Virus record (IMG/VR): IMGVR_UViG_3300014208_000023
Location: 256,001 to 320,000 of that record
Reading direction: 5' to 3' (one strand)
From: a virus
Lineage: Duplodnaviria; Caudoviricetes
DNA: 64,000 nucleotides
Under the pieces are notes generated by a model. The model had not been told where the DNA came from. It saw only the letters and a list, made by a program, of their open reading frames with translations, and did no database searches. The translations under genes were made by a program, and so were the position numbers. Below, one piece after another: positions 35,704 through 54,459 of the stretch. The first letter of the stretch is position 1, and the number at the start of each line of letters is the position of its first letter.

Positions 35704-36379
35704 TACCTAAATGCCAGTCTATTGCAGTAAGTCCCTTACTTTTTAGAAAGCCATTGACCGTTGAAAATGGTGAGCTTCTAAAAAACCCACTGTGGGCAGA
35801 AAGAGGAGATGGATGAACCGACTCAATTATGAAATGATTACGATTAGTTATGAGTTTTCTTTTGGACTTTGCAAAATTTCCCCACAAAATAAATACTAGA
35901 TTTTCTTTTTCATCATTAAGCTTTTGAATTACCCTATCAGTAAATTCTTCCCAGCCCTTATCCTTATGACTATTTGATAGTCCTTCACGAACCGTGAGGA
36001 CGCAATTTAAAAGCAATACTCCTTGTTTAGCCCATTTTGTAAGATCACCATTCTTGGAAATTGGTATGTTTAAGTCGTTTTTAAGCTCCTTAAAAATATT
36101 CAAAAGACTAGGTGGTAATGGAAAAGATTCCGGAACGCTGAAAGAAAGTCCTTGGGCTTGGCCAGGATTAATATATGGATCTTGTCCTATAACTACAACT
36201 TTAGTGTTTTCAAAATCACAATGCTTAAAAGCATTAAAGATATTTTCTTTTGCTGGAAAAATATTAAAGGATATTTCTTCTGTCGAAAGAAATTTCGAAA
36301 GATCTCTAAAATATTCTTTTTTCATTTCTTCAACTAAAAGTGTTTTCCATTCTCCCGTGAGCGACATTATTTCATCCAC
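35690..36379 (-). CDS. ung: Uracil-DNA glycosylase family 1
   Basis: GQDPY, FSVP, PPSL.NI, QGVLLLN, LWG, HPSPLS. Confidence 0.97.
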   Translation of the reverse strand: MDEIMSLTGEWKTLLVEEMKKEYFRDLSKFLSTEEISFNIFPAKENIFNAFKHCDFENTKVVVIGQDPYINPGQAQGLSFSVPESFPLPPSLLNIFKELKNDLNIPISKNGDLTKWAKQGVLLLNCVLTVREGLSNSHKDKGWEEFTDRVIQKLNDEKENLVFILWGNFAKSKRKLITNRNHFIIESVHPSPLSAHSGFFRSSPFSTVNGFLKSKGLTAIDWHLGNDNL

Positions 36380-37538: not shown

Positions 37539-38734
37539 CTTGCTGTTTCTGTAAATGTCTTTAGTGCTTTTATTTGATTTTTAACGCGCCTATCTAATTC
37601 TTTTACTTGTTGAGTAACATTGACTTTTGGATTAATAAGTATTCTCTCATTAAGTTCCTTAATATAAGCAACTGGCCAGGCCTTTACTTTTGGATAAAGA
37701 GTTTTAAATCTTGTTCCAAGAATTTCCTTAATAACTTCCTGATCTAATCTGTTGATTGTAATTATCTCATCAAATCGTGCTGGTCGTAAAATTGCCGGAT
37801 GAAATGGCGCCAAGCTATTAACGATACCGATCGTTAGTTTTAGCTTGACATGCATTCTTTCCAAGAATCCCAATAAAGATGCGGATCCTTCTACGGTATC
37901 TAGGTCGTCAAGTATTAGAGCCTCTACTTTTAGAGCGTCAATAATATTCTCAATTGCTTGAAGGTCGGATGTTTGTGGATCATATTTGAACTTAAGGGTT
38001 CGAAGTCCCAGCTCATTTATTATCGTATTGGTGCAGGTTGTTTTTCCGGTTCCAGGATATCCCAAAAATATTATTGATCTATTGATATTTTTATCAATGG
38101 CGGCTTTAATATGTTTGAGATGTTTTGTTGCTGTGGGAGAATTAATTGATTTTAACTCTTCATTCTTTAATAGAAATCTAGTGCCTGCATCAGACCATTT
38201 ATGTGGTCCTCTATGTGCTTTTTCAGTAATAGAAAAAACTTGAGATTTTATTGACTTAAAAGCTTCTTGATATACGAAATCTAATAGCTGCTCTTTTTTA
38301 CCTTCATCCAAACAAAACCATAGTCCCTGTTCATCCCTGCCAATGGATTTTCCATTTGGAAGAGTATATATTTTAGATACTGATTGGTTATTGTATTTGA
38401 AGTTTAGAACTTTGGAGGGATAATTGTCTAATATTGGAACTAGAATATCATAAAGTGGTTGCTGTGTAGTTGCACACACTAACACGTCCCAGCCCTGTTT
38501 TATATTGAAATAGTCTGAGCTCCATGAACCCATAAAATCAGCCATAACATTGAGTGAGCCAAGTCCGCCCTCAACAAATGATAGCCAATTTTTATTGTTA
38601 GCAAATGCGGTTATTGAGCGAGCAACCTCTACTCCAGCCGCAATGTATAAGCTTTTGTCCAGCAATTCTCTAACAAGTTTCCGCTTGAATTTATGAAACT
38701 TTTCGCTATCAAAAAATGATGATTCACTTTTCAT
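37535..38734 (-). CDS. AAA+ ATPase, paralogue 2
   Basis: GYPGTGKT, LILDDLD, IVNS, PAILRPARFD; N-terminus similar to paralogue 1. Confidence 0.88.
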   Translation of the reverse strand: MKSESSFFDSEKFHKFKRKLVRELLDKSLYIAAGVEVARSITAFANNKNWLSFVEGGLGSLNVMADFMGSWSSDYFNIKQGWDVLVCATTQQPLYDILVPILDNYPSKVLNFKYNNQSVSKIYTLPNGKSIGRDEQGLWFCLDEGKKEQLLDFVYQEAFKSIKSQVFSITEKAHRGPHKWSDAGTRFLLKNEELKSINSPTATKHLKHIKAAIDKNINRSIIFLGYPGTGKTTCTNTIINELGLRTLKFKYDPQTSDLQAIENIIDALKVEALILDDLDTVEGSASLLGFLERMHVKLKLTIGIVNSLAPFHPAILRPARFDEIITINRLDQEVIKEILGTRFKTLYPKVKAWPVAYIKELNERILINPKVNVTQQVKELDRRVKNQIKALKTFTETAR

Positions 38735-39954: not shown

Positions 39955-40875
39955 TTAGTTTGCTCTGTTTTCAACAAACCATTTGTAAGTTTTAGCTATT
40001 CCGTCTTCTAGAGACGTTTCTGCCTTAAGCCCAATTGATTTTAGTTTAGAAACGTCCAACAGTTTTCTTGGTGTTCCGTCAGGCTTGCTGCTATTATATG
40101 TGACTGGCCCTTCGTAACCGACAACTTTCTTTATCAAAATCGCCAAATCGTTAATGGTCATATCCTCACCGACACCAACATTAATGAGATCCGGTATGTC
40201 GTCCATAAACAATGTTTCTTTTACTATATTGGCCAGATCTTCACAATACATAAATTCTCTTCTAGCTTTTCCAGTTCCCCATAATTCTACGGACTCTGAA
40301 CCATTTACTTTAGCTTCGTGAATTTTTCGCAGTAAAGCCGGCAACACATGAGAATCTTCCAGATCAAAACTATCACCGGGCCCATACAAATTGGTGGGCA
40401 TTAATGAGTAGCCGGGAAAATTATATTGCCTACAATATGCTCTTATCATTTGCACTCCGGCAATTTTGGCAACAGCATAAGCGTCATTAGTAGATTCTAA
40501 TGGTCCGGTTAGAAGATATTCTTCTTTAATTGGTTGAGGGGCAAATTTTGGATAGATACACGACGATCCAAGAAAACAAAACTTTTTGCAACCATACTTT
40601 CTAGCTGCCTCTATTGTATTTACGGTTATTTGTAAATTCTGCCTAATAAAATCTCCCTGATAAGTAAAGTTTGCCATAATACCGCCAACCTTTGCGGCGG
40701 CCATTACAACATAATCAGGATGGTATTCTTTGAAAAAATCCTCTACTTGAGCTTGATTGGTTAAATCAAGCTCTGATCTAGATTTAGTAATGATATTATC
40801 ATAGTTAGATTTTTTAAGACTGCGCACTACGGCAGATCCTACCATCCCATTATGGCCCGCTACGTAAATGCTCAT
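39955..40875 (-). CDS. fcl: GDP-L-fucose synthase
   Basis: GHNGMVG, AAAKVGGI, LGSSCIYP (catalytic Cys), YAVAK, SHVLPAL (catalytic His), KPDGTPRK. Confidence 0.95.
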   Translation of the reverse strand: MSIYVAGHNGMVGSAVVRSLKKSNYDNIITKSRSELDLTNQAQVEDFFKEYHPDYVVMAAAKVGGIMANFTYQGDFIRQNLQITVNTIEAARKYGCKKFCFLGSSCIYPKFAPQPIKEEYLLTGPLESTNDAYAVAKIAGVQMIRAYCRQYNFPGYSLMPTNLYGPGDSFDLEDSHVLPALLRKIHEAKVNGSESVELWGTGKARREFMYCEDLANIVKETLFMDDIPDLINVGVGEDMTINDLAILIKKVVGYEGPVTYNSSKPDGTPRKLLDVSKLKSIGLKAETSLEDGIAKTYKWFVENRAN

Positions 40876-41873
40876 TTTTTATTTAGTAAATAAAGTTCTT
40901 TTTCAGCCAATTCCATATCATATTGAATCATCTCATCTACCAGCATTTGGAATGAAAACTTTGGTTCCCAACCCAGCTCTTTTCGTATTTTGGAAGAATC
41001 TCCGCATAGAGCATCCACTTCGCTTGCTCTAAAGTATTTAGGATCTATTTCAACATAGTTTTTGTAATCAAGCCCCAGATGAGAAAATACCATCTCAACA
41101 AACTCTAGAACTGAATGCATCTCTCCGCTAGAGATAACGTAGTCTCCAGGATTTTCAGCAGTTATGATTTTAAACATTCCGGCAGCTACGTCCGATGCAT
41201 GAGACCAATCTCTTTTGGCGTCTAGATTTCCTAGATATAGTTTTTCTTGTAGCCCTAGTTTTATACGAGTTGCCGCTCTAGTTATTTTTCTGGTAACGAA
41301 GGTTTCTCCTCGTCTAGCGCCTTCGTGATTGAAACTGATGGCGTTACTGGCATGCATTCCATAAGCTTCTCTGTAGTTTATGGTGGCGTAGAATCCGGCC
41401 ACCTTTGCCACTCCATACGGAGACCTTGGGTGAAATGGCGTTGTTTCACTCTGTGGTGGATTTTCAGATCCAAACATTTCGCTGCTTGAGGCCGTAAGGA
41501 ATCTGGTTTTGGGACTACATTTCCTAACTGCCTCCAAAACTCTCATTACTCCGGTTCCTGTAACGTCCATGGTATAAACTGGAATATCAAAACTTACCTT
41601 AACGTGAGATTGCGCTCCCATGTTAAATAACAAATCTGGCTTAATATCTCCTATCCAGCTAGATAGTGATGCATAATCAGATAGGTCTCCATATGTTAAT
41701 TCTAATTGCGCATCCGAATGCGGATCTTGATAAAGATGGTCTATTCTCTCCGTATTTAGAGAGCTACTTCGACGCTTTAATCCATGAACCTTATAGCCTT
41801 CTTTTAGAAGAAGTTCGCATAGATATGATCCCGTCTGTCCAGTAACGCCAGTAATGCAAGCAGTTTTAGTCAT
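40872..41873 (-). CDS. gmd: GDP-mannose 4,6-dehydratase
   Basis: GVTGQTGSYL, AQSHVKVSF, ASSSEMFG, PRSPYGVAK, FNHEG, ETFVTRKIT, GNLDAKRDW. Confidence 0.96.
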   Translation of the reverse strand: MTKTACITGVTGQTGSYLCELLLKEGYKVHGLKRRSSSLNTERIDHLYQDPHSDAQLELTYGDLSDYASLSSWIGDIKPDLLFNMGAQSHVKVSFDIPVYTMDVTGTGVMRVLEAVRKCSPKTRFLTASSSEMFGSENPPQSETTPFHPRSPYGVAKVAGFYATINYREAYGMHASNAISFNHEGARRGETFVTRKITRAATRIKLGLQEKLYLGNLDAKRDWSHASDVAAGMFKIITAENPGDYVISSGEMHSVLEFVEMVFSHLGLDYKNYVEIDPKYFRASEVDALCGDSSKIRKELGWEPKFSFQMLVDEMIQYDMELAEKELYLLNKK

Positions 41874-41928: not shown

Positions 41929-42183
41929 TCATTTTTTACCATATATTTTGGTCGATCCCTGCCCATATAGTTTTTGTGCCTCTCCGGTTTTAACCATATG
42001 ATTTATCTGCTCGTCTATCTGCTGAATAAGATCATTTCTCTGCTGGTTTGCTATGTTAGTAAGGCGAGTGGCATCTGCAATCTCCTTATCTGTAGCGGAT
42101 TTATTCCTCTTAATATCTTCGGCCATCCATATTCTTATATTGGTTACTGATAAGCTGTCAATTAGATTTCCAATAGTAGTCAT
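41929..42183 (-). CDS. DUF4254-like small helical protein
   Basis: TIGNLIDSLSVTNIRIWMAED...NQQRNDLIQQID. Confidence 0.6.
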   Translation of the reverse strand: MTTIGNLIDSLSVTNIRIWMAEDIKRNKSATDKEIADATRLTNIANQQRNDLIQQIDEQINHMVKTGEAQKLYGQGSTKIYGKK

Positions 42184-42977
42184 TGTTTCCTAGTTTTGAA
42201 TTGTTCGATGTCTTCTTGCGTATCATTTAGAAGGTCCCAATACGTATATTCCCAATTTACGGATGGGGTAATCCATTTTGTATTAGTTGGCGGAGTGCTT
42301 GTATCTTCATTAACAAGATCGTGATATTCTAAACCGTTCATTTCGTATAAATCTTGCACGAAGTTTCTAACATTAAACGCCATTCCGGCCCCAACCATAC
42401 AATCTTCGATCTGCCCTATGCTTTTGCTTACGACAAATTTTGTATGAACCATATCTCGCTCGAAGTCCAAATTACCAACACTAATTTTTTCATTATTTAC
42501 GATCGATCTAAATATCTTTCCAAATAGGAAATACTTGCTTCTATACGTTGAATTGAAATAGAATGGGTGAATAAATATAACTTTTTTGTATAGATCGTTT
42601 AATTCACGAAGTTCTTTAATTTTATTTAAGAGAAGTAGTTTAGAAATCGCGTATTCATTTTTAAGATCGAAATTTGGTTCCGTATCTAAAGATATTACTC
42701 CCTCCCCAAACCCTCTCCACAATTCACAACTGGTGTAGCACACTATCTTTTTGGAGTTTTGCAGAAGGGCTTTGATTATCTTTAGTGTGTTCAGATAATT
42801 CGGAGTGATATAGTCAATGTTCTTTTCGTATATTCTCTGCTCGGCAAAAGTAATATATACAGAGTCCCATTGATTTTGTTTTAAATAATTGAAGTCAATA
42901 TTTCTGGAGGAAATTTTGACATAATCATCCGGAAAATACTGGGCTAACTGGGACGAACTTCCTATCACTAAATCCAC
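42180..42977 (-). CDS. Atypical NAD-dependent sugar epimerase/reductase (SDR)
   Basis: Degenerate IGSSSQLA nucleotide loop, YAISK, GNLDFERD. Confidence 0.65.
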   Translation of the reverse strand: MDLVIGSSSQLAQYFPDDYVKISSRNIDFNYLKQNQWDSVYITFAEQRIYEKNIDYITPNYLNTLKIIKALLQNSKKIVCYTSCELWRGFGEGVISLDTEPNFDLKNEYAISKLLLLNKIKELRELNDLYKKVIFIHPFYFNSTYRSKYFLFGKIFRSIVNNEKISVGNLDFERDMVHTKFVVSKSIGQIEDCMVGAGMAFNVRNFVQDLYEMNGLEYHDLVNEDTSTPPTNTKWITPSVNWEYTYWDLLNDTQEDIEQFKTRKQ

Positions 42978-44194
42978 TAGACACCTATAACTTCAAATTT
43001 CGGGCAGGGGACTATAAAACGACCACCTGCTAACAAATAATCCTGTTCTCTGCTGACAAACTCATTTATAAAATGCCAAGGCAATACTAGTAAATAATCT
43101 GGCTTTGCTCTACGCATCTCATCTTCAGAGTAAATCGGTATATTTGTTCCTACCGTTTTAAGCCCAAACTTATAGGGACTACGCTCGGCAATTCCATCGA
43201 TTAACGTGTGGTCAAGTCCAAAATATTGCAATAGGGTATTTCCTTTGGTGGAGGCGCCATAACCCCAAATAGTCTTGCCTTTGGCCTTCTCTTCTTTTAT
43301 AAAGAATACGGTTTTTTCTTTCAAAGATTCTATATCATTGTAAAACGATATCCAGGTTTCAGCTTGGTCTAATTTCAAAGTTTTTTCATATGCCAATAGA
43401 GAATCAACTCTCATATTGCAGATGTCTCTATATGGTTGAGAAGAAAATGTTTTTTCATCACCAGATTGTTTCATCGTATAAATTCTAAATGACCCGCCAT
43501 TAACATCATTAAGCTGGCAGTCCATAACTTTAAACCCATTTTTTTCTAGCAAAGCTTTTAAATTAAAAAGAGAATAGTAATAAATGTGTTCGTGACAGAT
43601 ATTATCAAAAGCCATTTGTTTAATCATTAATGGCGTATAGCTTAATTGAAGAACCCAAATGCCATTATCATCCAACACTTCTCCGATATCACGAATAAAT
43701 GAGTCTGGGTCTTCCAGGTCATAAAACATAGCTATAGAGGTTATTACTTTCGCTTTTAATCCGCCAAACTTACATTTTTTAAATGTATTAGCGCTAAAGT
43801 AATCTTGAATAATTAAATTGGAATGTTTTTGTGACTCGGCTTTATATGAATCATCTACCGGATCTATTCCAACTCTGATTAGGTCAGATGGTAACCACGA
43901 AAGAAGCGTTCCGTCATTACAAGCAATATCTATCCAAAGATCATTTTCTTTAAGTTTTTTTATTTTAAGAATGGAATCAACTATATCTTTTAATTCTTGT
44001 TTCATAGAAGAATTAATGCCGCTACGATACCAATATGTTCCATACATAGTATTTAACGGAGCTGATTTGGAAAGCTTAACGTTTCCATCATCAGTTAGCA
44101 ATAGTTTCATTTCAACCTTATCGCCCCGTGGTGGCTGGTTGTCTTTTATAAAGTCAGAAACATATAGGTCGCCTAAAGTAAAAAGCTCTTTCAT
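42977..44194 (-). CDS. NDP-hexose 3-C-methyltransferase family
   Basis: YWYRSG, DIACNDGTLL, FDNICHEHIYYY, GGS.R, WGYGASTKGNTLLQY, LPWHF, GGRFIVP.P. Confidence 0.88.
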   Translation of the reverse strand: MKELFTLGDLYVSDFIKDNQPPRGDKVEMKLLLTDDGNVKLSKSAPLNTMYGTYWYRSGINSSMKQELKDIVDSILKIKKLKENDLWIDIACNDGTLLSWLPSDLIRVGIDPVDDSYKAESQKHSNLIIQDYFSANTFKKCKFGGLKAKVITSIAMFYDLEDPDSFIRDIGEVLDDNGIWVLQLSYTPLMIKQMAFDNICHEHIYYYSLFNLKALLEKNGFKVMDCQLNDVNGGSFRIYTMKQSGDEKTFSSQPYRDICNMRVDSLLAYEKTLKLDQAETWISFYNDIESLKEKTVFFIKEEKAKGKTIWGYGASTKGNTLLQYFGLDHTLIDGIAERSPYKFGLKTVGTNIPIYSEDEMRRAKPDYLLVLPWHFINEFVSREQDYLLAGGRFIVPCPKFEVIGV

Positions 44195-45807: not shown

Positions 45808-46623
45808 ATGAAAAAAATAATAAGCTACTCTTTGTATAATTCTATTCCAAAGAACACGATAAATGCCATCATCAACTGTATGTTGGTGCCTAAAATATAC
45901 CCAGGCTGGATAGCAAGATTTTATATAGATGATACTGTGCCAAAGCCTATTGTGGATATTTTACGAACTTTTGACTATGTTGAAATAGTTGAAATGCCAA
46001 GGGGAACTGGAAGTGAGCGTATGTGCTGGCGGTTCCTCCCAGCGGCAGACTATAATGCAATAATGATATCACGTGATTGCGATAGCTGGATTAGTTCAAG
46101 AGAAAAAGTTTGTGTCGATGCTTGGTTAGCTAGTGATAAAAACTTTAGTATTATTTATGATCACTGTTATCACACGGACTCAAAAATTAAAATAATGGGT
46201 GGCGTGTGGGGCTCAAGAAATGGTATCATTCCAAAGATGGCCGAAGAAATTGATAAGTTTGTAAATGCTGGCCAAACTTATGACCAGGGCCTATTATCAT
46301 CCGTAATCTATCCAAACATTACGCATACCGTCATGATTCATTATGGTGACCCTCAATATAATAATAAGGGGGAACGAATTCATCGAGGCAGCGAACTTGG
46401 AGGAGTTCCAATTCCGCCCTATGAAGAAAACGACGAGCCAATTCCTGGCCTTTCATTTAGACGCGTTAATAAGTTGAATGAATTTTTCTGCGCTCACTGC
46501 AAAAAACATCATGACGTTTTCATTGGTGGCATTATGGAACATATTCCAGAAGATGCTATGCAGGTTGTCAGAAATTACGCTAAAGAAAAGGGAATTTCAG
46601 TAGAAAATTGTCCTGGCTTCTAA
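45808..46623 (+). CDS. Putative GT-A glycosyltransferase of a family common in giant viruses and protists
   Basis: KIISYSLY...YPGW..RFY...MCWRF...SRDCDS..S.RE...DH..H..MGG.WG...DQ.LL...IYP. Confidence 0.6.
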   Translation: MKKIISYSLYNSIPKNTINAIINCMLVPKIYPGWIARFYIDDTVPKPIVDILRTFDYVEIVEMPRGTGSERMCWRFLPAADYNAIMISRDCDSWISSREKVCVDAWLASDKNFSIIYDHCYHTDSKIKIMGGVWGSRNGIIPKMAEEIDKFVNAGQTYDQGLLSSVIYPNITHTVMIHYGDPQYNNKGERIHRGSELGGVPIPPYEENDEPIPGLSFRRVNKLNEFFCAHCKKHHDVFIGGIMEHIPEDAMQVVRNYAKEKGISVENCPGF

Positions 46624-47393
46624 TAAAAATACTTCAAAAACAAATCCATTCTTAATTTATGCCCCTCAGCAAATGAGGGGAAATAAGAATTCCATTGAGA
46701 ACCAGCCATATAATGGTAGAACCCATTAGCAACCCAGCCGGCACTTAATCCATATTTGCCACATATAAATAAATCATCTCTAAAATACTGTAAGAATGGG
46801 GTATCTTTGGCTGTGCTAATATAATTTAATATTTGGCTATTTTCCAGAAACTTAACTTTTTCTGGATTACTTTCAATAAAGTATCTGGTTTTCCCACCAC
46901 AATCTAGTCCTGGCTCTAATCCAAAATCTATATTTTTAGGATTTTGTAGAAGAGCCATATTAATGATCGTAAATGCTGGGTAGAAATAAATAATTCCTTT
47001 ACCATCCAATATTTTATATTCAGTTGTGCTTGCCGCAATATTGTTTCCTATAATATTTGAAACATTAATATCTTCTATTGGAAATACATCAGTATGAAGC
47101 AAAATAATAATTTCACAATTATTTTTAACGGCATAGTCTTGTACTGCCCAATTTAAAGTGGCAGCATATCCTTCTGAAGGATTTTGAATCTTATGAATAC
47201 TTTGCGGAACTCTCACGCAATTAATTTTATTATAGGAGGTCACCAGATTTATGGCCGCTTCCATCTCCGGATCCATTGCATCATTAAATAATACAAAATC
47301 AAAATCTTCTTTCATATACTTTTGAAATTGTCTATACATTATATCAATTGGAAACTTATCATTGACAGCAAAAGAGAAAACGGATATTTTCAT
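46620..47393 (-). CDS. Putative GT-A glycosyltransferase
   Basis: FVLFNDA, LLHTDVFP (xxD motif); cluster context. Confidence 0.5.
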   Translation of the reverse strand: MKISVFSFAVNDKFPIDIMYRQFQKYMKEDFDFVLFNDAMDPEMEAAINLVTSYNKINCVRVPQSIHKIQNPSEGYAATLNWAVQDYAVKNNCEIIILLHTDVFPIEDINVSNIIGNNIAASTTEYKILDGKGIIYFYPAFTIINMALLQNPKNIDFGLEPGLDCGGKTRYFIESNPEKVKFLENSQILNYISTAKDTPFLQYFRDDLFICGKYGLSAGWVANGFYHYMAGSQWNSYFPSFAEGHKLRMDLFLKYFY

Positions 47394-48289
47394 ACAAGCT
47401 CCATAGAATTAATAGTTTCTTGAAGACCGTCCTTCAAAGAAGTAAATGATATATTTGGCATTATTGTTTTTAAGTATTGATTGCTTACGGTTTTCTTTAA
47501 ATTTCCATCAGGCTTACTGGTATCAAATTTAATTTGATGTTTGAAATTGACTATTTCGCCAATCGTAGTTGATAGGTCTGCAATACTAATTTCTTCGTCA
47601 CCGCAACAAATTACTGGTTTTGTGTCGAAATAAACATATACCAATTCTTTTATTATTGAGGCTAAATCTTTAGAATAAATAAACTGCCTTAATGGCTTGC
47701 CGGCACCACTCATTATGACATCAGAATTATTTTTCTCTGCATCTTTAAACTTATTAATTAAGTTTGGTATTAACCTACCAGAAGACATATTGTCATTTGG
47801 GCCATAGATATTTGACGGTATTATTCCAAAGTATTTTCTGCCATATTGAGTGTTATAATTTTGGCACTGTAGCTCAAGCATTCTTTTTGAAAACGCGTAT
47901 CCGGCAAAAGCTCCGGTTAAATTGCCTTCAAAAATCATAGACTCGTCCATAGGAAATTTTGATGGAACTTCTGGAAACATATTGACTGAAAGGCAGCACA
48001 TTACATTTTGAATATTAGATATATTGGCTGCCTCTAATACGTTTTCATTTATTCTAACATTTGTTGAGAACGAAGAAACTCTATCTATATTGTAGAAGCC
48101 AGGAACATATGATGCCAAATGAACAATATAATCTGGCCGCATCTCATTTATAAAACCAATAGTCTGCGATCTTTCCGTTAAGTCACAATCTTTTCTATTG
48201 ATGAATATCCAATTATTTTCACCTGAGCACATAGACTTTAGCGCGCTTCCTACGCAACCATCACTTCCAGTAACTAAAATACGTTTCAT
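47390..48289 (-). CDS. Fcl/ColC-like NDP-4-ketosugar reductase lacking epimerase residues
   Basis: TGSDGCVG, YAFSK, PSNIYGP, RQFIYS.DLA, KPDG; SVN replaces S(S/T)C and RLIP replaces HV(I/L)P. Confidence 0.8.
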   Translation of the reverse strand: MKRILVTGSDGCVGSALKSMCSGENNWIFINRKDCDLTERSQTIGFINEMRPDYIVHLASYVPGFYNIDRVSSFSTNVRINENVLEAANISNIQNVMCCLSVNMFPEVPSKFPMDESMIFEGNLTGAFAGYAFSKRMLELQCQNYNTQYGRKYFGIIPSNIYGPNDNMSSGRLIPNLINKFKDAEKNNSDVIMSGAGKPLRQFIYSKDLASIIKELVYVYFDTKPVICCGDEEISIADLSTTIGEIVNFKHQIKFDTSKPDGNLKKTVSNQYLKTIMPNISFTSLKDGLQETINSMELV

Positions 48290-49488
48290 GGCTTGTAGCT
48301 CAACAATATATCAACCAGATCATCCACTAGATCGGCCGACATTAAATTGCTTGGAAGACCTATAAAACACCCTCTATAGTGGCATTTCTCGGCCCCTTTA
48401 AAATCAGCCGGATTTAATTCAGGATAAAGATCCTTGATGACTGGCTGCCTAACCATATTGCCGGTTATTATTGGCCTATTTTCGACGCCTTTGCTTGAAA
48501 GATAATCTAAATAATCTGATAGCTTAATGTTTTCATCCAAAAACATAGTTACTCCAAACCACGCAATATCGCCATTATCTATTTCTTTTGGAAATGAAAT
48601 AAAGCTACCTCTTGGATCTGCTTCTATTTTTGACTTTATATTGCTATAGTTTATTTTCCTATTTTCGTTTTTAGATTTTAATTTATATAGCTGATGCACG
48701 CCCATCGCCGCCTGTATCTCCATGGGCCTGACGTTATATCCTAGATTTACGAAAGTAAATCTTGGGTCTATGTCCGGAAACTGTTCCTGAATTTCATTCT
48801 TATTCTTTAGGCTCCTAGACCAACCATGGGCACGCAGACACTTTATGAGCTCATAATCCTCATCGTCATCACAAACTACCATTCCGCCTTCCATAGTAGT
48901 TATGTGATGTGAATAATAAAATGAATATGTGGCAAAGGTTCCAAAAGTCCCCAGGTATTTGCCATCATATTTGGATCCTAGGCTTTCACACGTATCCTCT
49001 ATTAAAATAAGATTGTGGCGCTTAACTATATCCATTAATTTTCTCATGTCGGTGGAGTTTCCTAGGACATGAACCAACATAATGGCTTTTGTTTTTTCAG
49101 TTATTTTCTTTTCTAGATCCTCTAAATCTATATTTAGAGTTTCAGGATCTACATCGACAAACACTGGAACTAGATTGCACTGAACAATTGGAAAAATACT
49201 TGTAGACCAACACAAGGCCGGAACAATAACTTCATCGCCCGGCACAAGCTTATTGGCTCTTTTGTAGTTAGTTAAAGCGGCTACGGCTAACAAATTGGCG
49301 GACGAACCAGAATTAACCATAACTGCATGTTTAGCACCAACATATTCTGCGAACATATTTTCGAATTGGCTTACCTGCTCACCCATAGTGAAGTTTCCGG
49401 TAAGCAATACTTTAATCATATTTAAAATATCATCAGTATCGTGAGCGTTCTGTCCCAATGGGAACTTCATAATTAACGGTGATTTCAT
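48286..49488 (-). CDS. colD: GDP-4-keto-6-deoxy-D-mannose 3-dehydratase (PLP-dependent)
   Basis: FTMGE, NSGSSANLL, SFYYSHHITTMEGG (His replaces the Schiff-base Lys), RAHGWSR, GYNVRPME; no RfbH Fe-S Cys motif. Confidence 0.85.
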   Translation of the reverse strand: MKSPLIMKFPLGQNAHDTDDILNMIKVLLTGNFTMGEQVSQFENMFAEYVGAKHAVMVNSGSSANLLAVAALTNYKRANKLVPGDEVIVPALCWSTSIFPIVQCNLVPVFVDVDPETLNIDLEDLEKKITEKTKAIMLVHVLGNSTDMRKLMDIVKRHNLILIEDTCESLGSKYDGKYLGTFGTFATYSFYYSHHITTMEGGMVVCDDDEDYELIKCLRAHGWSRSLKNKNEIQEQFPDIDPRFTFVNLGYNVRPMEIQAAMGVHQLYKLKSKNENRKINYSNIKSKIEADPRGSFISFPKEIDNGDIAWFGVTMFLDENIKLSDYLDYLSSKGVENRPIITGNMVRQPVIKDLYPELNPADFKGAEKCHYRGCFIGLPSNLMSADLVDDLVDILLSYKP

Positions 49489-50552
49489 AGTTGGCTCTTA
49501 AGGCTGGTAAGAATTTCTTGCCAGTTATTATAAACTGAAGATCTTCTCAAGATATTGTGTTGGGACATATTATAGCTAATTTCGCTAGTATTTACGGTAT
49601 TTAATAAGTGAGATAGGTGAGATGGTGAATCAAAATATTGAATATATTTCATATTTCCTTCGTCGTAAAAATCACAGGTATCTATCCATTTATTTAAAAC
49701 CTCTGGGTTTCGAAGACTATTTGGATTATTTATATCTTCTGGCTCTTGCGCCTTACCTACTCTATAAAAAGTAAGGTCAGCAAATGCTTTGTTTTGATGA
49801 AACAATTCTTTTAAATAGGATTTAGATGGGAAAAATAATGGAACGTTAGCCGTATATTGCTCGAACGTAGACATTGTTCCATTGTGATATGGAATATGAA
49901 TTATTCCTTTATAACTATATAGATCTGCCCAGCTATATTTCCAGTTGCCGTTTCTTATTGCGCCAAGACTGACACACGAATTTCCAGGAACAGATATCTC
50001 TGATCGATCATGTATAACGAACTGATTTTTTGTTCCAGTATATTTGGCATTTGTATATTCGCATAAGTTTGGAATATGCATGCCAGTAATTCCAGTCATA
50101 TATTTAGTGTAATATTGGTCTCCTTTATTATTGCAAACATAATAAAGTTTTCCAGATGCAGCTCTTTCTTTTAGAAAGATATTTAATCTATCTCTAATTG
50201 CTAGATTGAAAGTATTGGGATGGTCATATCTAATACAATTAACAACTATAATTGGTTTATTAAATTTTTCATATAGAAGAGCGAATTCAGTAGGATAGCA
50301 CGCAATGAAGCCATCATATTTGCTTAATTCTTCTTTATTTGCCTCATAGAACTTATCACAAACTTCTTGCGTGCATACTCCAGAACAAGTTAATTGCGTT
50401 CCATCACTTAATTTGATATTTGGTTTAGGCTTATTTAAAACCCAGTGATGACCGGATAGCGACCAATCATCAACTTCATGGCCCAAATTTTTGAAAATAT
50501 GAGCCACATCTGCTATGACTGAAACGTGCTGGTCTATGTTGAAAAATTTCAT
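49485..50552 (-). CDS. Putative glycosyltransferase (GT-B-like, uncharacterised family)
   Basis: MKFFNIDQHVSVI..., GIIHIPY...STFEQY.ANVPLFFPS; cluster context. Confidence 0.45.
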   Translation of the reverse strand: MKFFNIDQHVSVIADVAHIFKNLGHEVDDWSLSGHHWVLNKPKPNIKLSDGTQLTCSGVCTQEVCDKFYEANKEELSKYDGFIACYPTEFALLYEKFNKPIIVVNCIRYDHPNTFNLAIRDRLNIFLKERAASGKLYYVCNNKGDQYYTKYMTGITGMHIPNLCEYTNAKYTGTKNQFVIHDRSEISVPGNSCVSLGAIRNGNWKYSWADLYSYKGIIHIPYHNGTMSTFEQYTANVPLFFPSKSYLKELFHQNKAFADLTFYRVGKAQEPEDINNPNSLRNPEVLNKWIDTCDFYDEGNMKYIQYFDSPSHLSHLLNTVNTSEISYNMSQHNILRRSSVYNNWQEILTSLKSQL

Positions 50553-50567
50553 ATATCCTAAATATAA

Positions 50568-51413
50568 TTATACTGCTTCAGAAGAGGTGTGAAAAAGCCG
50601 AATACCTATTTGCGTTTTGTTTTCTAGAAAATACATCTGCACATCAAACCCATTACTAAATGGCTTAATAGTATTATACAAAGTATATGGCGAAAACCAA
50701 TACTTATGATCTGGATGAACCATTTCTAACGAAAACTCATCTGAACAAAAAATTTCCGCAACTGCCATACACGGAACAGTGAATAAATATTCTTTAGCTT
50801 TTACTGAAAAAATATCTTTTAAAAATAAATCTACATTTGGAACGTGCTCCATTACTTCAGGAACTATGACAATATCATATTCTTTATCAACATCCTTATA
50901 TGACGTAAAGTATGTTCCTGGGCAGGCCTGTTTTAGCTTATTTGTGGTTTCAACATCAATATCCAGACCGTCTATTCGCGTATTTATTCTTTTTTTAAAT
51001 TCAGAATAAGCTATTTCTGCAAGAGAAGATGCAAGCTCTGCCTTGGCGAGCGCTTCATTTCCAACGGCCTGTTCTGGCGTTACCTTCGCTCTTTCTTTAG
51101 TTCTTTCTATTTTTGCCTTATCTACTTTCTCTTTAAGAACTATTTCTTCTTCGGTCTTCATGTCCTTAAGTTTAGATAAGAATATATGCAAATTAGATTC
51201 CACATTAAAAACCATAGTGTCAGCGCATCCTACATGTAGGACTGTTTTGCCCTGACATAAATTTCCAATAAATTCAAATCTAGAATGTCTGATATTTTTC
51301 AGATGCATTTTTTGTATATAAAAATTATCAGTAGCCTCGTATGTTTTACGGGCAATTTTAACTGGTGCTTCTGGTGCTTCGATAACTTCTAGCTGCATAT
51401 TTTCTCCGGTCAT
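50568..51413 (-). CDS. Class I SAM methyltransferase with ~60-aa helical insertion
   Basis: VLHVGCAD, GLDID, YDIVIVPEVMEHV, FTVP. Confidence 0.8.
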   Translation of the reverse strand: MTGENMQLEVIEAPEAPVKIARKTYEATDNFYIQKMHLKNIRHSRFEFIGNLCQGKTVLHVGCADTMVFNVESNLHIFLSKLKDMKTEEEIVLKEKVDKAKIERTKERAKVTPEQAVGNEALAKAELASSLAEIAYSEFKKRINTRIDGLDIDVETTNKLKQACPGTYFTSYKDVDKEYDIVIVPEVMEHVPNVDLFLKDIFSVKAKEYLFTVPCMAVAEIFCSDEFSLEMVHPDHKYWFSPYTLYNTIKPFSNGFDVQMYFLENKTQIGIRLFHTSSEAV

Positions 51414-52129
51414 ATTTTAATCCATTCTGGTGGTAAAAGGTCTTTTGTGTTATGTTGTAGTGCCGGCCCAAACCAGGTACTTGGTGCCAGAACTTTTTTA
51501 TTTTCGTTTTTATTTAGCCAAGCTCCCCACCAGCTAAAGCTACTGTTGCATATAATATTGCTTTCGCATGTTTTAGCCATCAAAGCTAAATCTATTGCCG
51601 GCCCATTTCCCTCAGAATATTCGTATTGATTTCCTACGAAATTTCTTTTGGCCCAGTCCATATCATCAGATAGAATCAAAAATTTCTTGCACCCACTCAT
51701 TTCCATTGCTTTTGAATAATAATCCATACTCATAAGTGGATGACAATTTTGAAAATTAAGGTAATCACCTCTTCTTATATGAAGAGAACACAATCCCTCT
51801 TCTCTTTCAAACTTATAAATTGGAGTTAATGCTTTAGCTATTTCTTCTTTATTATTTTCAAAGTATTTCCAGGATTGGAAATATCCTATTAAATCCACCG
51901 AATTAGACGCTGGGATTTCATCATAATGAAATGCTTTTTCCTGATAAGTTTTAGATACGGCTATATTTGATGAAAAACAATTATGCAAATTAAAGTTAGG
52001 TTCATATTGCCAAGGTGGAAACTGATAATCCGTATTGTTTTTAATAGCAGTAGATATAGTGGTAGCTATCTGGAATAAACAATTCCCTAACCTACCCATC
52101 TTTCCTAGCTGTGAAAACGTAACTGTCAT
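51410..52129 (-). CDS. GT11 alpha-1,2-fucosyl/colitosyltransferase
   Basis: GRLGNCLFQ, GYFQSWKYF, HIRRGDY, ILSDD, NSSFSWWGAWL. Confidence 0.93.
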   Translation of the reverse strand: MTVTFSQLGKMGRLGNCLFQIATTISTAIKNNTDYQFPPWQYEPNFNLHNCFSSNIAVSKTYQEKAFHYDEIPASNSVDLIGYFQSWKYFENNKEEIAKALTPIYKFEREEGLCSLHIRRGDYLNFQNCHPLMSMDYYSKAMEMSGCKKFLILSDDMDWAKRNFVGNQYEYSEGNGPAIDLALMAKTCESNIICNSSFSWWGAWLNKNENKKVLAPSTWFGPALQHNTKDLLPPEWIKI

Positions 52130-54459
52130 TGCCTTATTTCGTGGTGGTTTTTATCAAGTAGAAGTATTTTTGGCGCAAATGTTTTTGGAAGCCACTTCTT
52201 CTTATAAGACTCAATATTTGATTGAGGGTAGTGATAGCTTGGAGTCAAAATTACTGTTGGCTCGTTGTCTAGAAAATACCTATTTATTGCGGTCTCGTCG
52301 TGCCAAACTGGAATCACGTTGTTTGCCACATCTCTATCTATAACATCCTTACACCATTTAGCAAGCTCCATATACTTGTCTCTTCTACCTCCACTAAATC
52401 CTCCGCCAAAATAGTTCTTATATTTTTTTGGATACGAATCAGAAATGAATAAACGAGAGGCTGGATTTGTTTCAAATGGACCCTTACCATTAGTAAATCC
52501 ACAATGCTGAACGCCAACCAAATCGCCTATAATCTCTGGCCCAATATTATCTACGAATAAACAATCAACATCTACATAATATAGATAATCTTCATTATTC
52601 AGAATATGCTCATTGTTTGCGAAATGGGCAAATCGATCCATACTGGCAAATGGAAACGGTTTATGCTGAATTGGAATATGAATTATTCTACGATCCGATT
52701 TTGGAATATGAACTGTTTTTCGCTCAGCATCTAATGACGTTATGTCGCTAAAAACATAATATGTTACATCAAAATTTTCATTTAGAAAATGTTTGTCGGC
52801 AGAATCTATTATTCCTTGCAAAAATCTATCATATTTGCCCGTGGCTATAAGCATTAGTCCAACCGAAGTTTTTTTACTTGGCGGAGATACTGGAGAATAC
52901 CGAGGCATATTTCTAATGTGCCTATCAAGATCTTGTTGCATCTTAACATTTACTTTATGATCATTAATTGGGTTTTCCATATTATAGACATAAAGAATAT
53001 CTGAAATGTATTTTTGATGGTGTTTTGCCATTTCCATCATAGGAAACATTATGGCGAAATCCCATGTCATCTTGAAAAATTCACCGTTAATCGATAAATC
53101 TTCTTTTCTTATTATTTTGAATAGCCAAGCATAGAACGTTCTTAAGTGGGAGGCTGCCCAAGGCGTTTTTCTAAACGCTAGATTTTCTATAACTTCTGGT
53201 CGATAGGCGCCGGCAATACCTGAGCCGCCATTTGGGTGGTTTGTATATTGTCCGTAAGACATCCAAATATCACTTTCATTGTAGTGACGCTTAAGTCTAT
53301 TCAAAACCTCTCCATCGGGAAGCCAGTCATCACCATCAAGCGTTAGGACAATTTCATCATCAGCACAACTATGAATCATATTATATAGATTTGCCAACGC
53401 TCCTTGTCTGGAGTTATTCTTTATTACGGTGCATTTATGTTGGTGCGGTGAGTTTTTCACCGCAGCATTTACCAAATTGAATGTTTGATCTGGAGAGCAA
53501 TCATCTACAAATATGACTCTGAACTTATCATAATTTTGATTTAGTGCCGACAATATATTCTTTACGCACCATCTTTCATTATTGTAGCTTGGAATAACAA
53601 TAACGAACCTTTTTTCTTTAGAATCCAATGACCACGCTCGCGGAACATTAACTAGGGCCGTTTTCATTGGCAAACTAATTGATGTTGGATCATTAAGTGT
53701 TAGTGGCTTGCCAATAGTTAAGCCTGGCCTTCTTGAATTAATAAAGCGCTCACTATACTGAACATCTCCGCTTCTACGTGCGGCATCTGACTCCAGCTTA
53801 AGAATATGGTGCCTATCTCTGCGTATAAACCAAAGCCTTCTATTACCAAATTTTCTTCCGGTATCATTAACCGACCAGTCATATCTAAATTGGCCGTGAT
53901 TTAATTTAGTCTCATCAACCCTTTTGAATTTTGCATTCAATGATGAAAGCTTGTTTTGCAGATTTTTTTCTGAAACAATGCTTCCTTCTCCACTGAAGGA
54001 ATGATCGTCTATATCTTTAGATTCATAAATAGGAACTAATATATTTGGATTAGAAGAATCTAATATTTCAGTTTCTAGAACTATTCTTTCAGAAACTGAA
54101 AGCAACGATTCTATATGTTTTTCATATGTCTTAAGGTGACATAGAAGATCTATGCTAATGGCCATATCAAAAGAAAAAGGCTCGAATGGAAAATCTTTTT
54201 CCAAATCGAGCTGCATTGTTTTTATATATGGGAACTTTTTTCTAATAAGATTTAGGTTAGATTCTCTTGCATCTACGCAAGTCATCTCCGCCCCTAACCT
54301 TGCAAATATATTGGCAAATTCTCCGTTACCGGCACCCAAATCAAGGATCTTTTTTCCTTTGAAAAAGGTCTGTCCAAAATAATCAATTATAGTTTTGCTT
54401 AACTTGAAATTTCTCTCTTTTTGCTCGGCTGGAGTCATAACTCTAAATATAACTGCCAT
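52126..54459 (-). CDS. Three-domain fusion: SAM methyltransferase + GT2 + GT6 (ABO-like)
   Basis: ILDLGAGNG; IPSYNN/VDDCS/LDGDDW; IATGKY, VDVD, FGGGFSGG, WHDETAIN. Confidence 0.88.
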   Translation of the reverse strand: MAVIFRVMTPAEQKERNFKLSKTIIDYFGQTFFKGKKILDLGAGNGEFANIFARLGAEMTCVDARESNLNLIRKKFPYIKTMQLDLEKDFPFEPFSFDMAISIDLLCHLKTYEKHIESLLSVSERIVLETEILDSSNPNILVPIYESKDIDDHSFSGEGSIVSEKNLQNKLSSLNAKFKRVDETKLNHGQFRYDWSVNDTGRKFGNRRLWFIRRDRHHILKLESDAARRSGDVQYSERFINSRRPGLTIGKPLTLNDPTSISLPMKTALVNVPRAWSLDSKEKRFVIVIPSYNNERWCVKNILSALNQNYDKFRVIFVDDCSPDQTFNLVNAAVKNSPHQHKCTVIKNNSRQGALANLYNMIHSCADDEIVLTLDGDDWLPDGEVLNRLKRHYNESDIWMSYGQYTNHPNGGSGIAGAYRPEVIENLAFRKTPWAASHLRTFYAWLFKIIRKEDLSINGEFFKMTWDFAIMFPMMEMAKHHQKYISDILYVYNMENPINDHKVNVKMQQDLDRHIRNMPRYSPVSPPSKKTSVGLMLIATGKYDRFLQGIIDSADKHFLNENFDVTYYVFSDITSLDAERKTVHIPKSDRRIIHIPIQHKPFPFASMDRFAHFANNEHILNNEDYLYYVDVDCLFVDNIGPEIIGDLVGVQHCGFTNGKGPFETNPASRLFISDSYPKKYKNYFGGGFSGGRRDKYMELAKWCKDVIDRDVANNVIPVWHDETAINRYFLDNEPTVILTPSYHYPQSNIESYKKKWLPKTFAPKILLLDKNHHEIRQ

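What the first reader, a model, noticed from the sequence alone, without database searches (positions are those of the whole stretch)
47390..49488. ColD paired with a reductase that lost its epimerase residues: possible new GDP-3,6-dideoxy-D-hexose route
Seen: 48286-49488 has the ColD signature (His at the PLP-Lys position). Its coupled downstream gene is Fcl/ColC-like with YxxxK intact, but Asn replaces the catalytic Cys (LSVNMFP vs LGSSCIYP) and Arg replaces the catalytic His (GRLIP vs SHVLP); the true Fcl at 39955 keeps both. Known: that Cys/His pair performs epimerisation in GDP-fucose synthase, and colitose needs C5 epimerisation. Inference: reduction without epimerisation would give a D-series 3,6-dideoxyhexose (tyvelose or its C4 epimer) on GDP, whereas bacterial tyvelose is made on CDP. 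It could instead act as a GDP-D-rhamnose/6-deoxytalose reductase.
Basis: partly seen in the sequence, partly recalled or inferred. Interest (0 to 1): 0.72.

Follow-up and report, generated by a model that had tools for sequence, protein, structure and literature searches.

The report
Phage ColD with epimerase-less Fcl-type reductase
A 428-kb uncultured phage and its relatives pair a colitose-type sugar 3-deoxygenase with a fucose-synthase-like reductase that has lost both epimerising residues, so they probably make a GDP-linked 3,6-dideoxy-D-sugar not yet described in nature, most likely for a phage-built glycan.

Summary
48286-49488(-) is a ColD-type 3-dehydratase: it has Ser-His at the PLP-lysine site and matches PDB ColD at E 9e-85. 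It overlaps by ATGA the start of 47390-48289(-), an Fcl-fold SDR with the Ser/Tyr/Lys triad intact. In that SDR, Asn103 and Arg172 replace the epimerisation Cys and His.

This is a family trait. In 100 homologues of at least 50% identity the His site is always Arg and the Cys site is Asn in 90 (else Thr, His, Gly or Ser). Hits of 45% identity or less, the window's own Fcl, and E. coli O55/O111 ColC all keep Cys/His.

The subfamily forms one clade. It was found only on phage or metagenome contigs, and in 8 of 9 loci examined it sits in a fixed block: GT, ColD, reductase, GT-A.

Its nearest outside relative is a ColD-SDR fusion protein. Crystallised reductase-only enzymes of C. jejuni (MlghC/Cj1428) also carry His-to-Arg. 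No RmlC-type epimerase is present in the complete phage genome.

Best reading (about 0.55): a 4-reductase without epimerase activity that yields a GDP-3,6-dideoxy-D-hexose. The C4 configuration and the product are untested. I class it as a new variant of a known kind.

Other readers in this scan noted this same stretch, and ColD modules in more than 100 other genomes.

The parts
48286..49488 (-). ColD-type PLP/PMP-dependent GDP-4-keto-6-deoxy-D-mannose 3-dehydratase (P0002, 400 aa)
   Evidence: PDB ColD at E 9e-85. It is 39-40% identical to E. coli O55/O111 ColD. Ser187/His188 and D159, E162, S183, R219, F240, N248, R250, E329 and R331 are conserved, and there is no extra Cys cluster. It is the only DegT gene in the phage.
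47390..48289 (-). Fcl-fold SDR 4-reductase lacking the epimerisation dyad (P0001, 299 aa; Asn103, Arg172; triad Ser101/Tyr131/Lys135)
   Evidence: Human GFS alignment. NCBIfam GDP-L-fucose synthase scores 167.5 bits against a cut-off of 500. Subfamily site counts. Model pLDDT 91.9, TM 0.95 to human GFS. ATGA overlap with ColD.
49485..50552 (-). Conserved upstream partner (P0004, 355 aa), probable glycosyltransferase of no Pfam family; overlaps the ColD start by 4 nt
   Evidence: No Pfam or NCBIfam hit. Atlas neighbours are viral 'glycosyltransferase family protein' clusters, score 0.98; this is a lead only. It is syntenic in all nine loci examined, 68-80% identical where measured (L013, L093, L094).
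46620..47393 (-). Conserved downstream partner (257 aa), GT-A-fold glycosyltransferase; overlaps the reductase stop by 4 nt
   Evidence: AlphaFold model pLDDT 87.5. All top Foldseek PDB hits are GT-A glycosyltransferases such as SpsA, BoGT6a, LgtC and GnT-I. It is syntenic in L013, L093, L094 and L100-L103.
40872..41873 (-). GDP-mannose 4,6-dehydratase (Gmd, P0005), supplier of the ColD substrate
   Evidence: TIGR01472 scores 451.5 bits against a cut-off of 415.
39955..40875 (-). Canonical GDP-L-fucose synthase-like enzyme (P0003) with Cys/His intact; coupled to gmd
   Evidence: NF047922 scores 435 bits. It reads GSSCIYP and DSHVLP. In the tree it groups with the bacterial Fcl/ColC branch.
51410..54459 (-). 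GT11 gene and methyltransferase-GT2-GT6 fusion at the head of the same co-linear gene string
   Evidence: Pfam Glyco_transf_11, Glyco_transf_6, Glycos_transf_2 and Methyltransf_11. The same gene order is seen in relatives.

Best explanation
The two genes form a phage-borne branch off GDP-mannose.

1. Host GDP-mannose is turned into GDP-4-keto-6-deoxy-D-mannose by the phage Gmd.
2. The ColD-type enzyme removes the 3-OH, using PMP formed from glutamate, and gives GDP-4-keto-3,6-dideoxy-D-mannose.
3. The Fcl-fold SDR (Asn103/Arg172) then reduces C4 with NAD(P)H without epimerising C5.
4. The product keeps the D configuration. It is GDP-3,6-dideoxy-alpha-D-arabino-hexose (GDP-tyvelose) or its C4 epimer, GDP-3,6-dideoxy-D-lyxo-hexose.
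5. One of the two flanking glycosyltransferases, which are translationally coupled to the pair, puts the sugar on a phage-made glycan.

Shown here: gene identities, loss of the dyad across a conserved clade, and linkage to ColD and Gmd.

Inferred: absence of epimerase activity, the substrate, the C4 stereochemistry and the acceptor.
For: (1) Dyad lost, triad kept. The Cys site reads N90/T5/H1/G1/S1 and the His site R100/100. Ser, Tyr and Lys are conserved. The variable residue at the Cys site suggests it is no longer catalytic.

(2) In human GFS, C116A and H186A have no detectable activity, and Cys and His are the base and acid for both epimerisations (PMC12362431).

(3) Real ColC keeps Cys/His and sits on a different branch of the tree. 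The Asn/Arg clade is monophyletic (SH-aLRT 100) inside a Cys/His-bearing clade.

(4) There is a precedent. The reductase-only C. jejuni enzymes MlghC/Cj1428 (PDB 7anc, 7cxt, 7m13) and the HS:5 C4-reductase read GSGYMYP and KSRVLP, that is Cys to Tyr and His to Arg.

(5) Linkage to ColD. There is an ATGA overlap. The block GT355, ColD, SDR, GT-A is found in the window, L013, L093 and L100-L103, and L095 has ColD, SDR, Gmd, Fcl in a row. The nearest non-subfamily relative, P0262, is a single ColD-SDR polypeptide followed by Gmd. It is 58.5% identical to P0002 and about 49-50% to P0001.

(6) No RmlC-type epimerase (PF00908) is found in the complete 428-kb genome or in two partial relatives. Both flanking unknowns look like glycosyltransferases, not cupins.

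(7) A separate Gmd-Fcl pair already covers fucose.
Against: - No activity data exist.
- Reductase-only enzymes of C. jejuni normally act after a separate epimerase, so loss of the dyad does not by itself fix the D series. A host epimerase, or the generic 141-aa cupin at about 193.5 kb of the phage genome, cannot be excluded.
- One relative (L094) keeps the SDR (Gly at the Cys site) between the same two GT genes but has no ColD in the 17 kb seen. The enzyme can therefore evidently serve without 3-deoxygenation.
- H186K human GFS remains active, so Arg could still act as an acid. A subfamily-specific Tyr61 (94 of 100 sequences) lies in the active-site loop and could be a substitute base.
- The aromatic residue that stacks on guanine in human GFS (Trp208) is Asn or Ser in the subfamily, so nucleotide binding may differ.
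- A GT11 gene, a family that uses GDP-beta-L-sugars including colitose, travels with the block.
Confidence: 0.55

Rival explanations
1. P0001 is a plain GDP-4-keto-6-deoxy-D-mannose 4-reductase giving GDP-D-rhamnose or GDP-6-deoxy-D-talose. The ColD product is finished by the canonical Fcl (P0003), acting as a ColC, to give GDP-L-colitose for the GT11 enzyme.
For: L094 keeps the SDR and Gmd without ColD. P0003 retains Cys/His and groups with E. coli ColC in the tree. GT11 enzymes transfer both fucose and colitose.
Against: The ATGA coupling and fixed ColD-SDR adjacency occur in 8 of 9 loci, while Fcl is coupled to Gmd. ColD-SDR single-chain fusions are the nearest relatives. P0001 is far from the Rmd family: 2pk3 scores E 9e-7 against 2e-61 for GFS. 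E. coli strains that make colitose carry a dedicated ColC besides their fcl; the presence of fcl in the colanic-acid cluster is my own knowledge, and the ColC genes are shown.
Confidence: 0.2
2. The pair still ends in an L-series sugar (GDP-L-colitose or its C4 epimer). C5 is epimerised either by an unrecognised or host epimerase before P0001 acts, as in the C. jejuni HS:5/HS:11 pathways, or by P0001 itself through other residues such as Tyr61/Arg172.
For: MlghC-type enzymes with Tyr/Arg act on epimerised substrates supplied by a cupin (PMC10440746). H186K GFS is active. Tyr61 is subfamily-specific. The co-travelling GT11 prefers beta-L donors. The phage has one generic cupin.
Against: No PF00908 match in the complete genome or in two partial relatives. 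The cupin lies 110 kb away beside an RmlB-like gene in a dTDP-sugar module. The neighbours in the operon are GT-like. The Cys-site residue varies (N/T/H/G/S), which is unlike a catalytic base.
Confidence: 0.12
3. The pair works on a different nucleotide sugar, for example a dTDP- or CDP-4-keto-6-deoxyhexose from the phage's RmlA/RmlB genes. The product would then be a 3,6-dideoxyhexose on another carrier.
For: The phage has RmlA-like, RmlD-like and two RmlB-like genes. The guanine-stacking aromatic residue is lost in the SDR subfamily.
Against: ColD-specific residues are all conserved, and the best PDB match is ColD, not E1 or the NDP-glucose 3-dehydratase 9wvy. The genes are contiguous with Gmd in L095 and L104. 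The C. jejuni HS:11 GDP-heptose reductase also lacks that aromatic residue, having Leu.
Confidence: 0.06
4. P0001 is a decayed, non-catalytic Fcl paralogue.
For: Two catalytic residues of the parent family are gone.
Against: The Ser/Tyr/Lys triad, the N-terminal glycine-rich motif region and 41 invariant columns are kept across homologues down to 50% identity. New motifs (LSVNMFP, SGRLIP, HLASYVPGFY) are themselves conserved. The fold model is confident.
Confidence: 0.02

Closest known systems
GDP-L-colitose pathway of E. coli O55/O111 and Yersinia pseudotuberculosis (Gmd, ColD/WbdK, ColC)
   Same: It has the same first two steps and the same enzyme families. ColD keeps Ser-His at the lysine site at 39-40% identity. 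The reductase and dehydratase genes are adjacent and overlap by 4 nt.
   Different: ColC keeps the Cys/His epimerisation pair, whereas the phage enzyme has Asn/Arg. The gene order is reversed: colC then colD in E. coli, ColD then SDR here. The phage SDR is not an orthologue of ColC in the tree. The predicted product is D-series, not L.
C. jejuni GDP-heptose C4-reductases (MlghC/Cj1428, PDB 7anc, 7cxt, 7m13; HS:5 reductase) and the GDP-3,6-dideoxyheptose pathway (PMC10440746)
   Same: These are Fcl-fold enzymes that only reduce C4. His is replaced by Arg and Cys by a non-nucleophile. A ColD-type C3-dehydratase acts upstream on a GDP-sugar. GDP-3,6-dideoxy-D-arabino and D-lyxo products are obtainable when no epimerase is added.
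   Different: They are only about 22-24% identical to the P0001 model. Their substrates are heptoses. Their natural pathways include a separate RmlC-like C5 epimerase and end in L-sugars, and the D-series products were made only in vitro. No such epimerase is present in the phage.
GDP-L-fucose synthase (human FX/TSTA3, E. coli Fcl/WcaG)
   Same: The fold matches at TM 0.95 with 35-37% identity to human GFS. The SDR triad and overall length are the same.
   Different: Both epimerisation residues are absent. The score is far below the NCBIfam equivalog cut-off (167.5 against 500). The guanine-stacking Trp is replaced.
Rmd / GDP-6-deoxy-D-talose synthase (GDP-4-keto-6-deoxy-D-mannose reductases)
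   Same: They are reductase-only enzymes acting on a GDP-4-keto-6-deoxy sugar, and the product stays in the D series.
   Different: They belong to a different SDR lineage: 2pk3 scores E 9e-7 against P0001. They are not linked to a 3-dehydratase.
CDP-tyvelose / CDP-paratose / CDP-abequose pathway (E1/E3, RfbS/RfbE)
   Same: It would give the same or an epimeric sugar (a 3,6-dideoxy-D-hexose).
   Different: It uses a CDP carrier, an iron-sulfur E1 plus an E3 reductase, and a 2-epimerase (established knowledge). None of these features is seen here: E1 is the weaker PDB match and there is no Cys cluster.

Membership tests
ColD (GDP-4-keto-6-deoxy-D-mannose 3-dehydratase) | DegT/aspartate-aminotransferase fold with His in place of the PLP lysine, preceded by Ser (Ser187/His188) | tested here: met
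   YSHHITT aligns with ColD YSHHIAT. Pfam PF01041, E 3e-89.
ColD (GDP-4-keto-6-deoxy-D-mannose 3-dehydratase) | No E1-type iron-sulfur cysteine motif and no E3 partner | tested here: met
   Only four Cys columns are conserved in the clade. Two are shared with cluster-free E. coli ColD, and there is no C-terminal Cys cluster. ColD outscores E1.
ColD (GDP-4-keto-6-deoxy-D-mannose 3-dehydratase) | Works on the Gmd product (genomic linkage to gmd) | tested here: met
   Gmd lies 6.4 kb away in the window. It is contiguous in L095 and L104 and 3-8 kb away in L013, L093 and L100-L103.
ColD (GDP-4-keto-6-deoxy-D-mannose 3-dehydratase) | Glutamate-dependent 3-deoxygenation activity | not testable with these tools
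   Needs an enzyme assay.
ColC (GDP-L-colitose synthase) | Fcl-fold SDR with the Ser/Tyr/Lys triad next to colD | tested here: met
ColC (GDP-L-colitose synthase) | Cys/His acid-base pair for C5 epimerisation | tested here: not met
   Asn103/Arg172 here. E. coli O55 and O111 ColC keep GSSCMYP and SSHMIP.
ColC (GDP-L-colitose synthase) | Orthology with enterobacterial ColC | tested here: not met
   ColC groups with the other Fcl branch. The Asn/Arg clade is nested in a separate Cys/His clade.
GDP-L-fucose synthase (NCBIfam NF047922) | Score above the curated equivalog cut-off, with the catalytic Cys and His | tested here: not met
   167.5 bits against a cut-off of 500. The dyad is absent.
Reductase-only Fcl-fold C4-reductases (C. 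jejuni MlghC type) | Epimerisation His replaced by Arg and Cys replaced by another residue | tested here: met
   MlghC/Cj1428 read GSGYMYP and KSRVLP. P0001 reads LSVNMFP and SGRLIP.
Reductase-only Fcl-fold C4-reductases (C. jejuni MlghC type) | Partnered with a separate RmlC-like epimerase; GDP-heptose substrate | tested here: not met
   No PF00908 in the complete phage genome or in two relatives. The context is Gmd, not heptose genes. Identity to the model is only 22-24%.
Rmd / GDP-6-deoxy-D-talose synthase | Sequence membership of the Rmd SDR lineage | tested here: not met
   2pk3 scores E 9e-7 against 2e-61 for GFS.

The most novel reading that the evidence does not exclude
The huge-phage clade, and probably some giant-virus-like contigs whose ColD-SDR fusions have also lost the dyad, naturally make a GDP-linked 3,6-dideoxy-D-hexose. 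If the reduction gives the D-lyxo isomer, this would be a 3,6-dideoxyhexose not among the five known from nature. The phage would use it, through its own dedicated glycosyltransferases, to decorate a phage-built glycan on the virion.
Probability: 0.25. Interest if true: 0.8.

Novelty: new variant of a known kind. Interest (0 to 1): 0.6.

Why it matters
To my knowledge, 3,6-dideoxyhexoses are rare, strongly immunogenic sugars made by two textbook routes: CDP/E1-E3 for the D-series and ascarylose, and GDP/ColD-ColC for L-colitose. A conserved ColD plus epimerase-less reductase would be a third natural route. It would give a D-series dideoxy sugar on GDP, and it is encoded by viruses rather than cells.

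The idea is directly testable with three soluble enzymes. It would add a new donor sugar for glycoengineering. It also gives a sequence signature (LSVNMFP and SGRLIP) that separates reductase-only members from true fucose and colitose synthases, which automatic annotation currently lumps together as 'GDP-L-fucose synthase'.

Finally, it adds to the case that huge phages build their own unusual glycans.

Tried and rejected
- blastn of the ColD gene against E. coli genomes found nothing. I reached ColC instead through a six-frame protein search of the O55 and O111 chromosomes.
- Single-protein locus searches found only one close viral relative and two irrelevant cellular loci. A profile was needed.
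- 79 cellular loci retrieved with subfamily-derived patterns all carried Cys/His-type or other enzymes. None was Asn/Arg.
- GenBank phages hold no subfamily member; the best hit is 36.6% identical.
- The literature search for C4-reductase structure papers returned nothing, and so did the search for 'GDP-tyvelose'.
- The promoter and terminator scan of 44-55 kb was at chance level.
- The roughly 140-aa N-terminal extension of the 540-aa ColD-like proteins has no Pfam family, so it could not be tested as a hidden epimerase.
I therefore could not measure active-site geometry around Asn103, Arg172 and Tyr61.
- I rejected the pseudo-enzyme reading because the triad and the new motifs are conserved.
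- I rejected membership of Rmd and of E1.
Full report
**Setting.** The window is bases 256001-320000 of a 428,320-bp IMG/VR virus record with direct terminal repeats that CheckV rates complete. The record has 16 tRNA genes and no 16S rRNA gene. The window carries bacterial-type DNA polymerase III alpha, topoisomerase I, SbcCD and trigger factor genes. This is a huge phage. Other readers of this scan describe it as a groundwater phage with suspected virion glycosylation. I treat those notes as leads only.

- On the minus strand, 48286-49488 encodes a 400-aa DegT-family protein, P0002 (Pfam E 3e-89).
- Its best solved relatives are the four E. coli ColD entries (E 9e-85 to 5e-83). These are ahead of the iron-sulfur 3-dehydrase E1 (2e-66) and perosamine synthase (7e-48).
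- It reads YSHHITT where ColD reads YSHHIAT, so the Ser187-His188 pair that replaces the Asn-Lys of aminotransferases is present.
- Thirteen other ColD positions that I checked are identical in E. coli ColD, P0002 and 21 relatives. These include D159, E162, S183, R219, F240, N248, R250, E329 and R331.
- There is no extra cysteine cluster.
- The ColD stop codon overlaps the start of 47390-48289 as ATGA.
- That gene (P0001, 299 aa) aligns end to end with human GDP-L-fucose synthase (E 2e-61). CLSVNMFP lies opposite CLSTCIFP, SGRLIP opposite DGHVLP, and YAFSK opposite YSYAK.
- So the reduction triad is kept, while Cys116 and His186 of the human enzyme are Asn103 and Arg172 here.
- The second Fcl-like gene at 39955-40875 overlaps gmd (40872-41873; TIGR01472 above cut-off) and keeps GSSCIYP and DSHVLP.

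**It is a family signature, not an accident.**
- A search of 5.8 billion clustered proteins gave about 100 clusters that are 50-82% identical to P0001.
- In 100 such sequences the His site is Arg in all 100. The Cys site is Asn in 90, Thr in 5, and His, Gly or Ser in one each.
- Ser101, Tyr131 and Lys135 are conserved.
- Every hit of 45% identity or less, and the window's canonical Fcl, keep Cys and His (22 of 22).
- In a maximum-likelihood tree the Asn/Arg sequences form one clade (SH-aLRT 100, stem length 0.62). This clade is nested within Cys/His-bearing sequences.
- In a library of 1.84 billion representatives at 50% identity, the whole subfamily collapses to one full-length representative. 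124 of the 150 nearest representatives keep Cys/His.
- Patterns taken from the subfamily retrieved 79 loci from 185,579 species-representative genomes. None had Asn/Arg.
- GenBank phage records have no member.
- The subfamily is so far seen only in IMG/VR and metagenome contigs, several of 410-480 kb.

**The stated refuter fails.** I located the colitose genes of E. coli O55:H7 CB9615 and O111:H- 11128 by six-frame search. In both, a 307-aa Fcl-like gene overlaps the start of colD. It reads GSSCMYP, YALAK or YAIAK, and SSHMIP. ColC therefore keeps the pair. ColC also falls on the other main branch of the tree, together with the window's canonical Fcl, far from the Asn/Arg clade. The Yersinia enzyme characterised by Alam et al. 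(cited in PMC8987622) could not be fetched.

**Does loss of the pair mean loss of epimerisation?** There are two lines of outside evidence.
- In human GFS, Cys116 is the base and His186 the acid for both epimerisations. C116A and H186A have no detectable activity, C116S is about 1000-fold down, and H186K is still active (PMC12362431).
- The C. jejuni heptose C4-reductases share the Fcl fold and were shown biochemically to reduce only, with a separate cupin doing the epimerisation. They include enzymes with the same His-to-Arg change. The HS:5 reductase and the crystallised MlghC/Cj1428 (7anc, 7cxt, 7m13) read GSGYMYP and KSRVLP (supplement of PMC10440746).
- Other C. jejuni reductases (HS:11, DdahC) keep His. 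Presence of the pair therefore does not prove epimerase activity, but its absence fits reductase-only enzymes.
- The variable residue at the former Cys site in the phage clade (N/T/H/G/S) fits a position that is no longer catalytic.
- The AlphaFold model is confident (pLDDT 91.9) and superposes on human GFS at TM 0.95. The scaffold is therefore intact.

**Is ColD really its partner?**
- Nine contexts were examined.
- The window, L013, L093, L100, L101, L102 and L103 all show the same string: [GT2-GT6 fusion], GT11, (methyltransferase), a 355-aa GT-like protein, ColD, the Asn/Arg SDR and a 257-aa protein, with 4-nt overlaps. Gmd-Fcl lies 3-8 kb further on.
- L095, a 50%-identity outlier, has ColD, SDR, Gmd and Fcl contiguous.
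- The nearest protein outside the subfamily, P0262, is a single 718-aa ColD-SDR polypeptide. Its ColD domain is 58.5% identical to P0002 and has the SHH signature. Its SDR domain is about 49-50% identical to P0001. It is followed directly by Gmd on a contig with ankyrin-repeat genes.
- Further ColD-SDR fusions exist with the dyad kept (P0394, P0284) or lost (P0262 Gly/His; P0387 Tyr/Pro).
- These fusions are Rosetta-stone evidence that the two enzymes act in one pathway. They also show that ColD-partnered reductases have lost the dyad more than once.
- The exception is L094. There the SDR (Gly at the Cys site) sits between the same two flanking genes with ColD cleanly absent, and Gmd, which carries an intein, has no Fcl behind it. 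In that phage the enzyme must take the 3-hydroxy substrate.

**Is there a separate epimerase?**
- PF00908 (the RmlC family, which includes the C. jejuni GDP-heptose epimerases) has no match at E 0.1 or better in the complete genome, nor in two partial relatives.
- The only cupins are a 141-aa protein at about 193.5 kb beside an RmlB-like gene and methyltransferases, in what looks like a dTDP-sugar module, and a 120-aa one near 400.6 kb.
- The upstream neighbour in the operon resembles viral glycosyltransferase clusters.
- The downstream 257-aa protein models as a GT-A glycosyltransferase (pLDDT 87.5; all top PDB matches are GT-A enzymes).
- A host epimerase cannot be excluded.

**Most likely mechanism.**
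1. Host GDP-mannose is dehydrated by the phage Gmd. The phage has no ManC; its single nucleotidyltransferase is RmlA-like.
2. ColD removes the 3-hydroxyl.
3. P0001 reduces C4 without touching C5.
4. The product is GDP-3,6-dideoxy-alpha-D-arabino-hexose or the D-lyxo epimer.
5. One of the flanking glycosyltransferases uses it.

The heptose counterparts of both products were obtained in vitro when C. jejuni reductases were given the un-epimerised ColD-type product (PMC10440746). The chemistry is therefore feasible, but no natural pathway to such a D-series GDP-dideoxy sugar is reported there. No paper in the searchable library mentions GDP-tyvelose.

I put this reading at about 0.55. The rivals are:
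- P0001 as a plain 6-deoxy-D-hexose reductase, with Fcl finishing colitose: 0.2.
- An L-series product through an unseen epimerase or substitute residues: 0.12.
- Another nucleotide carrier: 0.06.
- A dead enzyme: 0.02.

**Points that cut the other way.**
- A GT11 gene always travels with the block. [quoted passage not shown]
- The canonical Fcl could feed that enzyme. Even so, this keeps the colitose readings alive.
- The subfamily has also replaced the aromatic residue that stacks on guanine in human GFS (Trp208) by Asn or Ser. It has acquired a conserved Tyr61 and Pro63 in the loop that closes over the GDP-sugar. I could not inspect model coordinates.

**Verdict.** The genes are not a colitose (ColC) system and not a member of the fucose synthase equivalog. 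They work like the reductase-only Fcl-fold enzymes of C. jejuni, but on a hexose, without the partner epimerase, and in phages. I class this as a new variant of a known kind, of moderate to high interest, because a three-enzyme assay would settle it.

Noticed in passing
window 30753-32620 (-); G000:C1 about 125.7-126.7 kb and 189-197 kb (L097, L098): The phage also carries a dTDP-sugar toolkit. It has an RmlA-like nucleotidyltransferase (31886-32620), an RmlD-like reductase (30753-31619), and two RmlB-like 4,6-dehydratases elsewhere. One of these sits beside a 141-aa cupin and two methyltransferase-domain proteins.
   Followed up: partly
L094:11412-13418: In a related phage contig the Gmd gene is 668 aa and carries a LAGLIDADG (intein-type) insertion. 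The same contig lacks ColD and the Fcl that normally follows Gmd, and has a GalE-like epimerase in front of Gmd.
   Followed up: partly
P0213, P0216 (L096:6325-7938), P0239 and about 20 other metagenomic proteins: ColD-like proteins of about 540 aa, 55-59% identical to P0002, carry an N-terminal extension of about 140 aa with no Pfam family. In L096 the gene is divergent from an Fcl-like (Cys/His) gene followed by Gmd, next to NUDIX and GT10 genes.
   Followed up: partly
P0262 (L104:8001-10157), P0387 (L105), P0394, P0284: These are single-chain ColD-SDR fusion proteins in both domain orders. The epimerisation dyad is kept (Cys/His) in some and lost (Gly/His, Tyr/Pro) in others. P0262 sits on an ankyrin-rich, giant-virus-like contig directly upstream of Gmd.
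   Followed up: partly
L022:19837-20820, L038:108-755, L058:9436-10470(-), L065:102-1007: There is a separate cellular Fcl-like lineage in which the dyad reads Gly or Ala and Met (ASTIGIYP and SYSMVIP). It was used as the outgroup in the tree and appears uncharacterised.
   Followed up: no
window 42180-44194 (-): An NDP-hexose C-methyltransferase (Methyltransf_14) is coupled to an atypical 265-aa SDR just upstream of gmd. The pair is conserved in L013 and L100-L102 but absent from L103 and L094. It is probably a third, C-methyl-branched GDP-sugar branch.
   Followed up: no
window 51410-52129 (-): The GT11 protein is only 239 aa and matches only positions 107-296 of the 298-position Pfam model. 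Relatives have the same short form (236-242 aa).
   Followed up: no
L098:852-2219(-); L103:17429-18727: The phage and a relative carry FtsZ/TubZ-like tubulin genes (TIGR00065 E 8e-17; PF00091 in L103).
   Followed up: no
window 36372-38734 (-): Two adjacent paralogous AAA+ ATPase genes (388 and 399 aa) lie between the Thg1-like gene and the glycan island.
   Followed up: no
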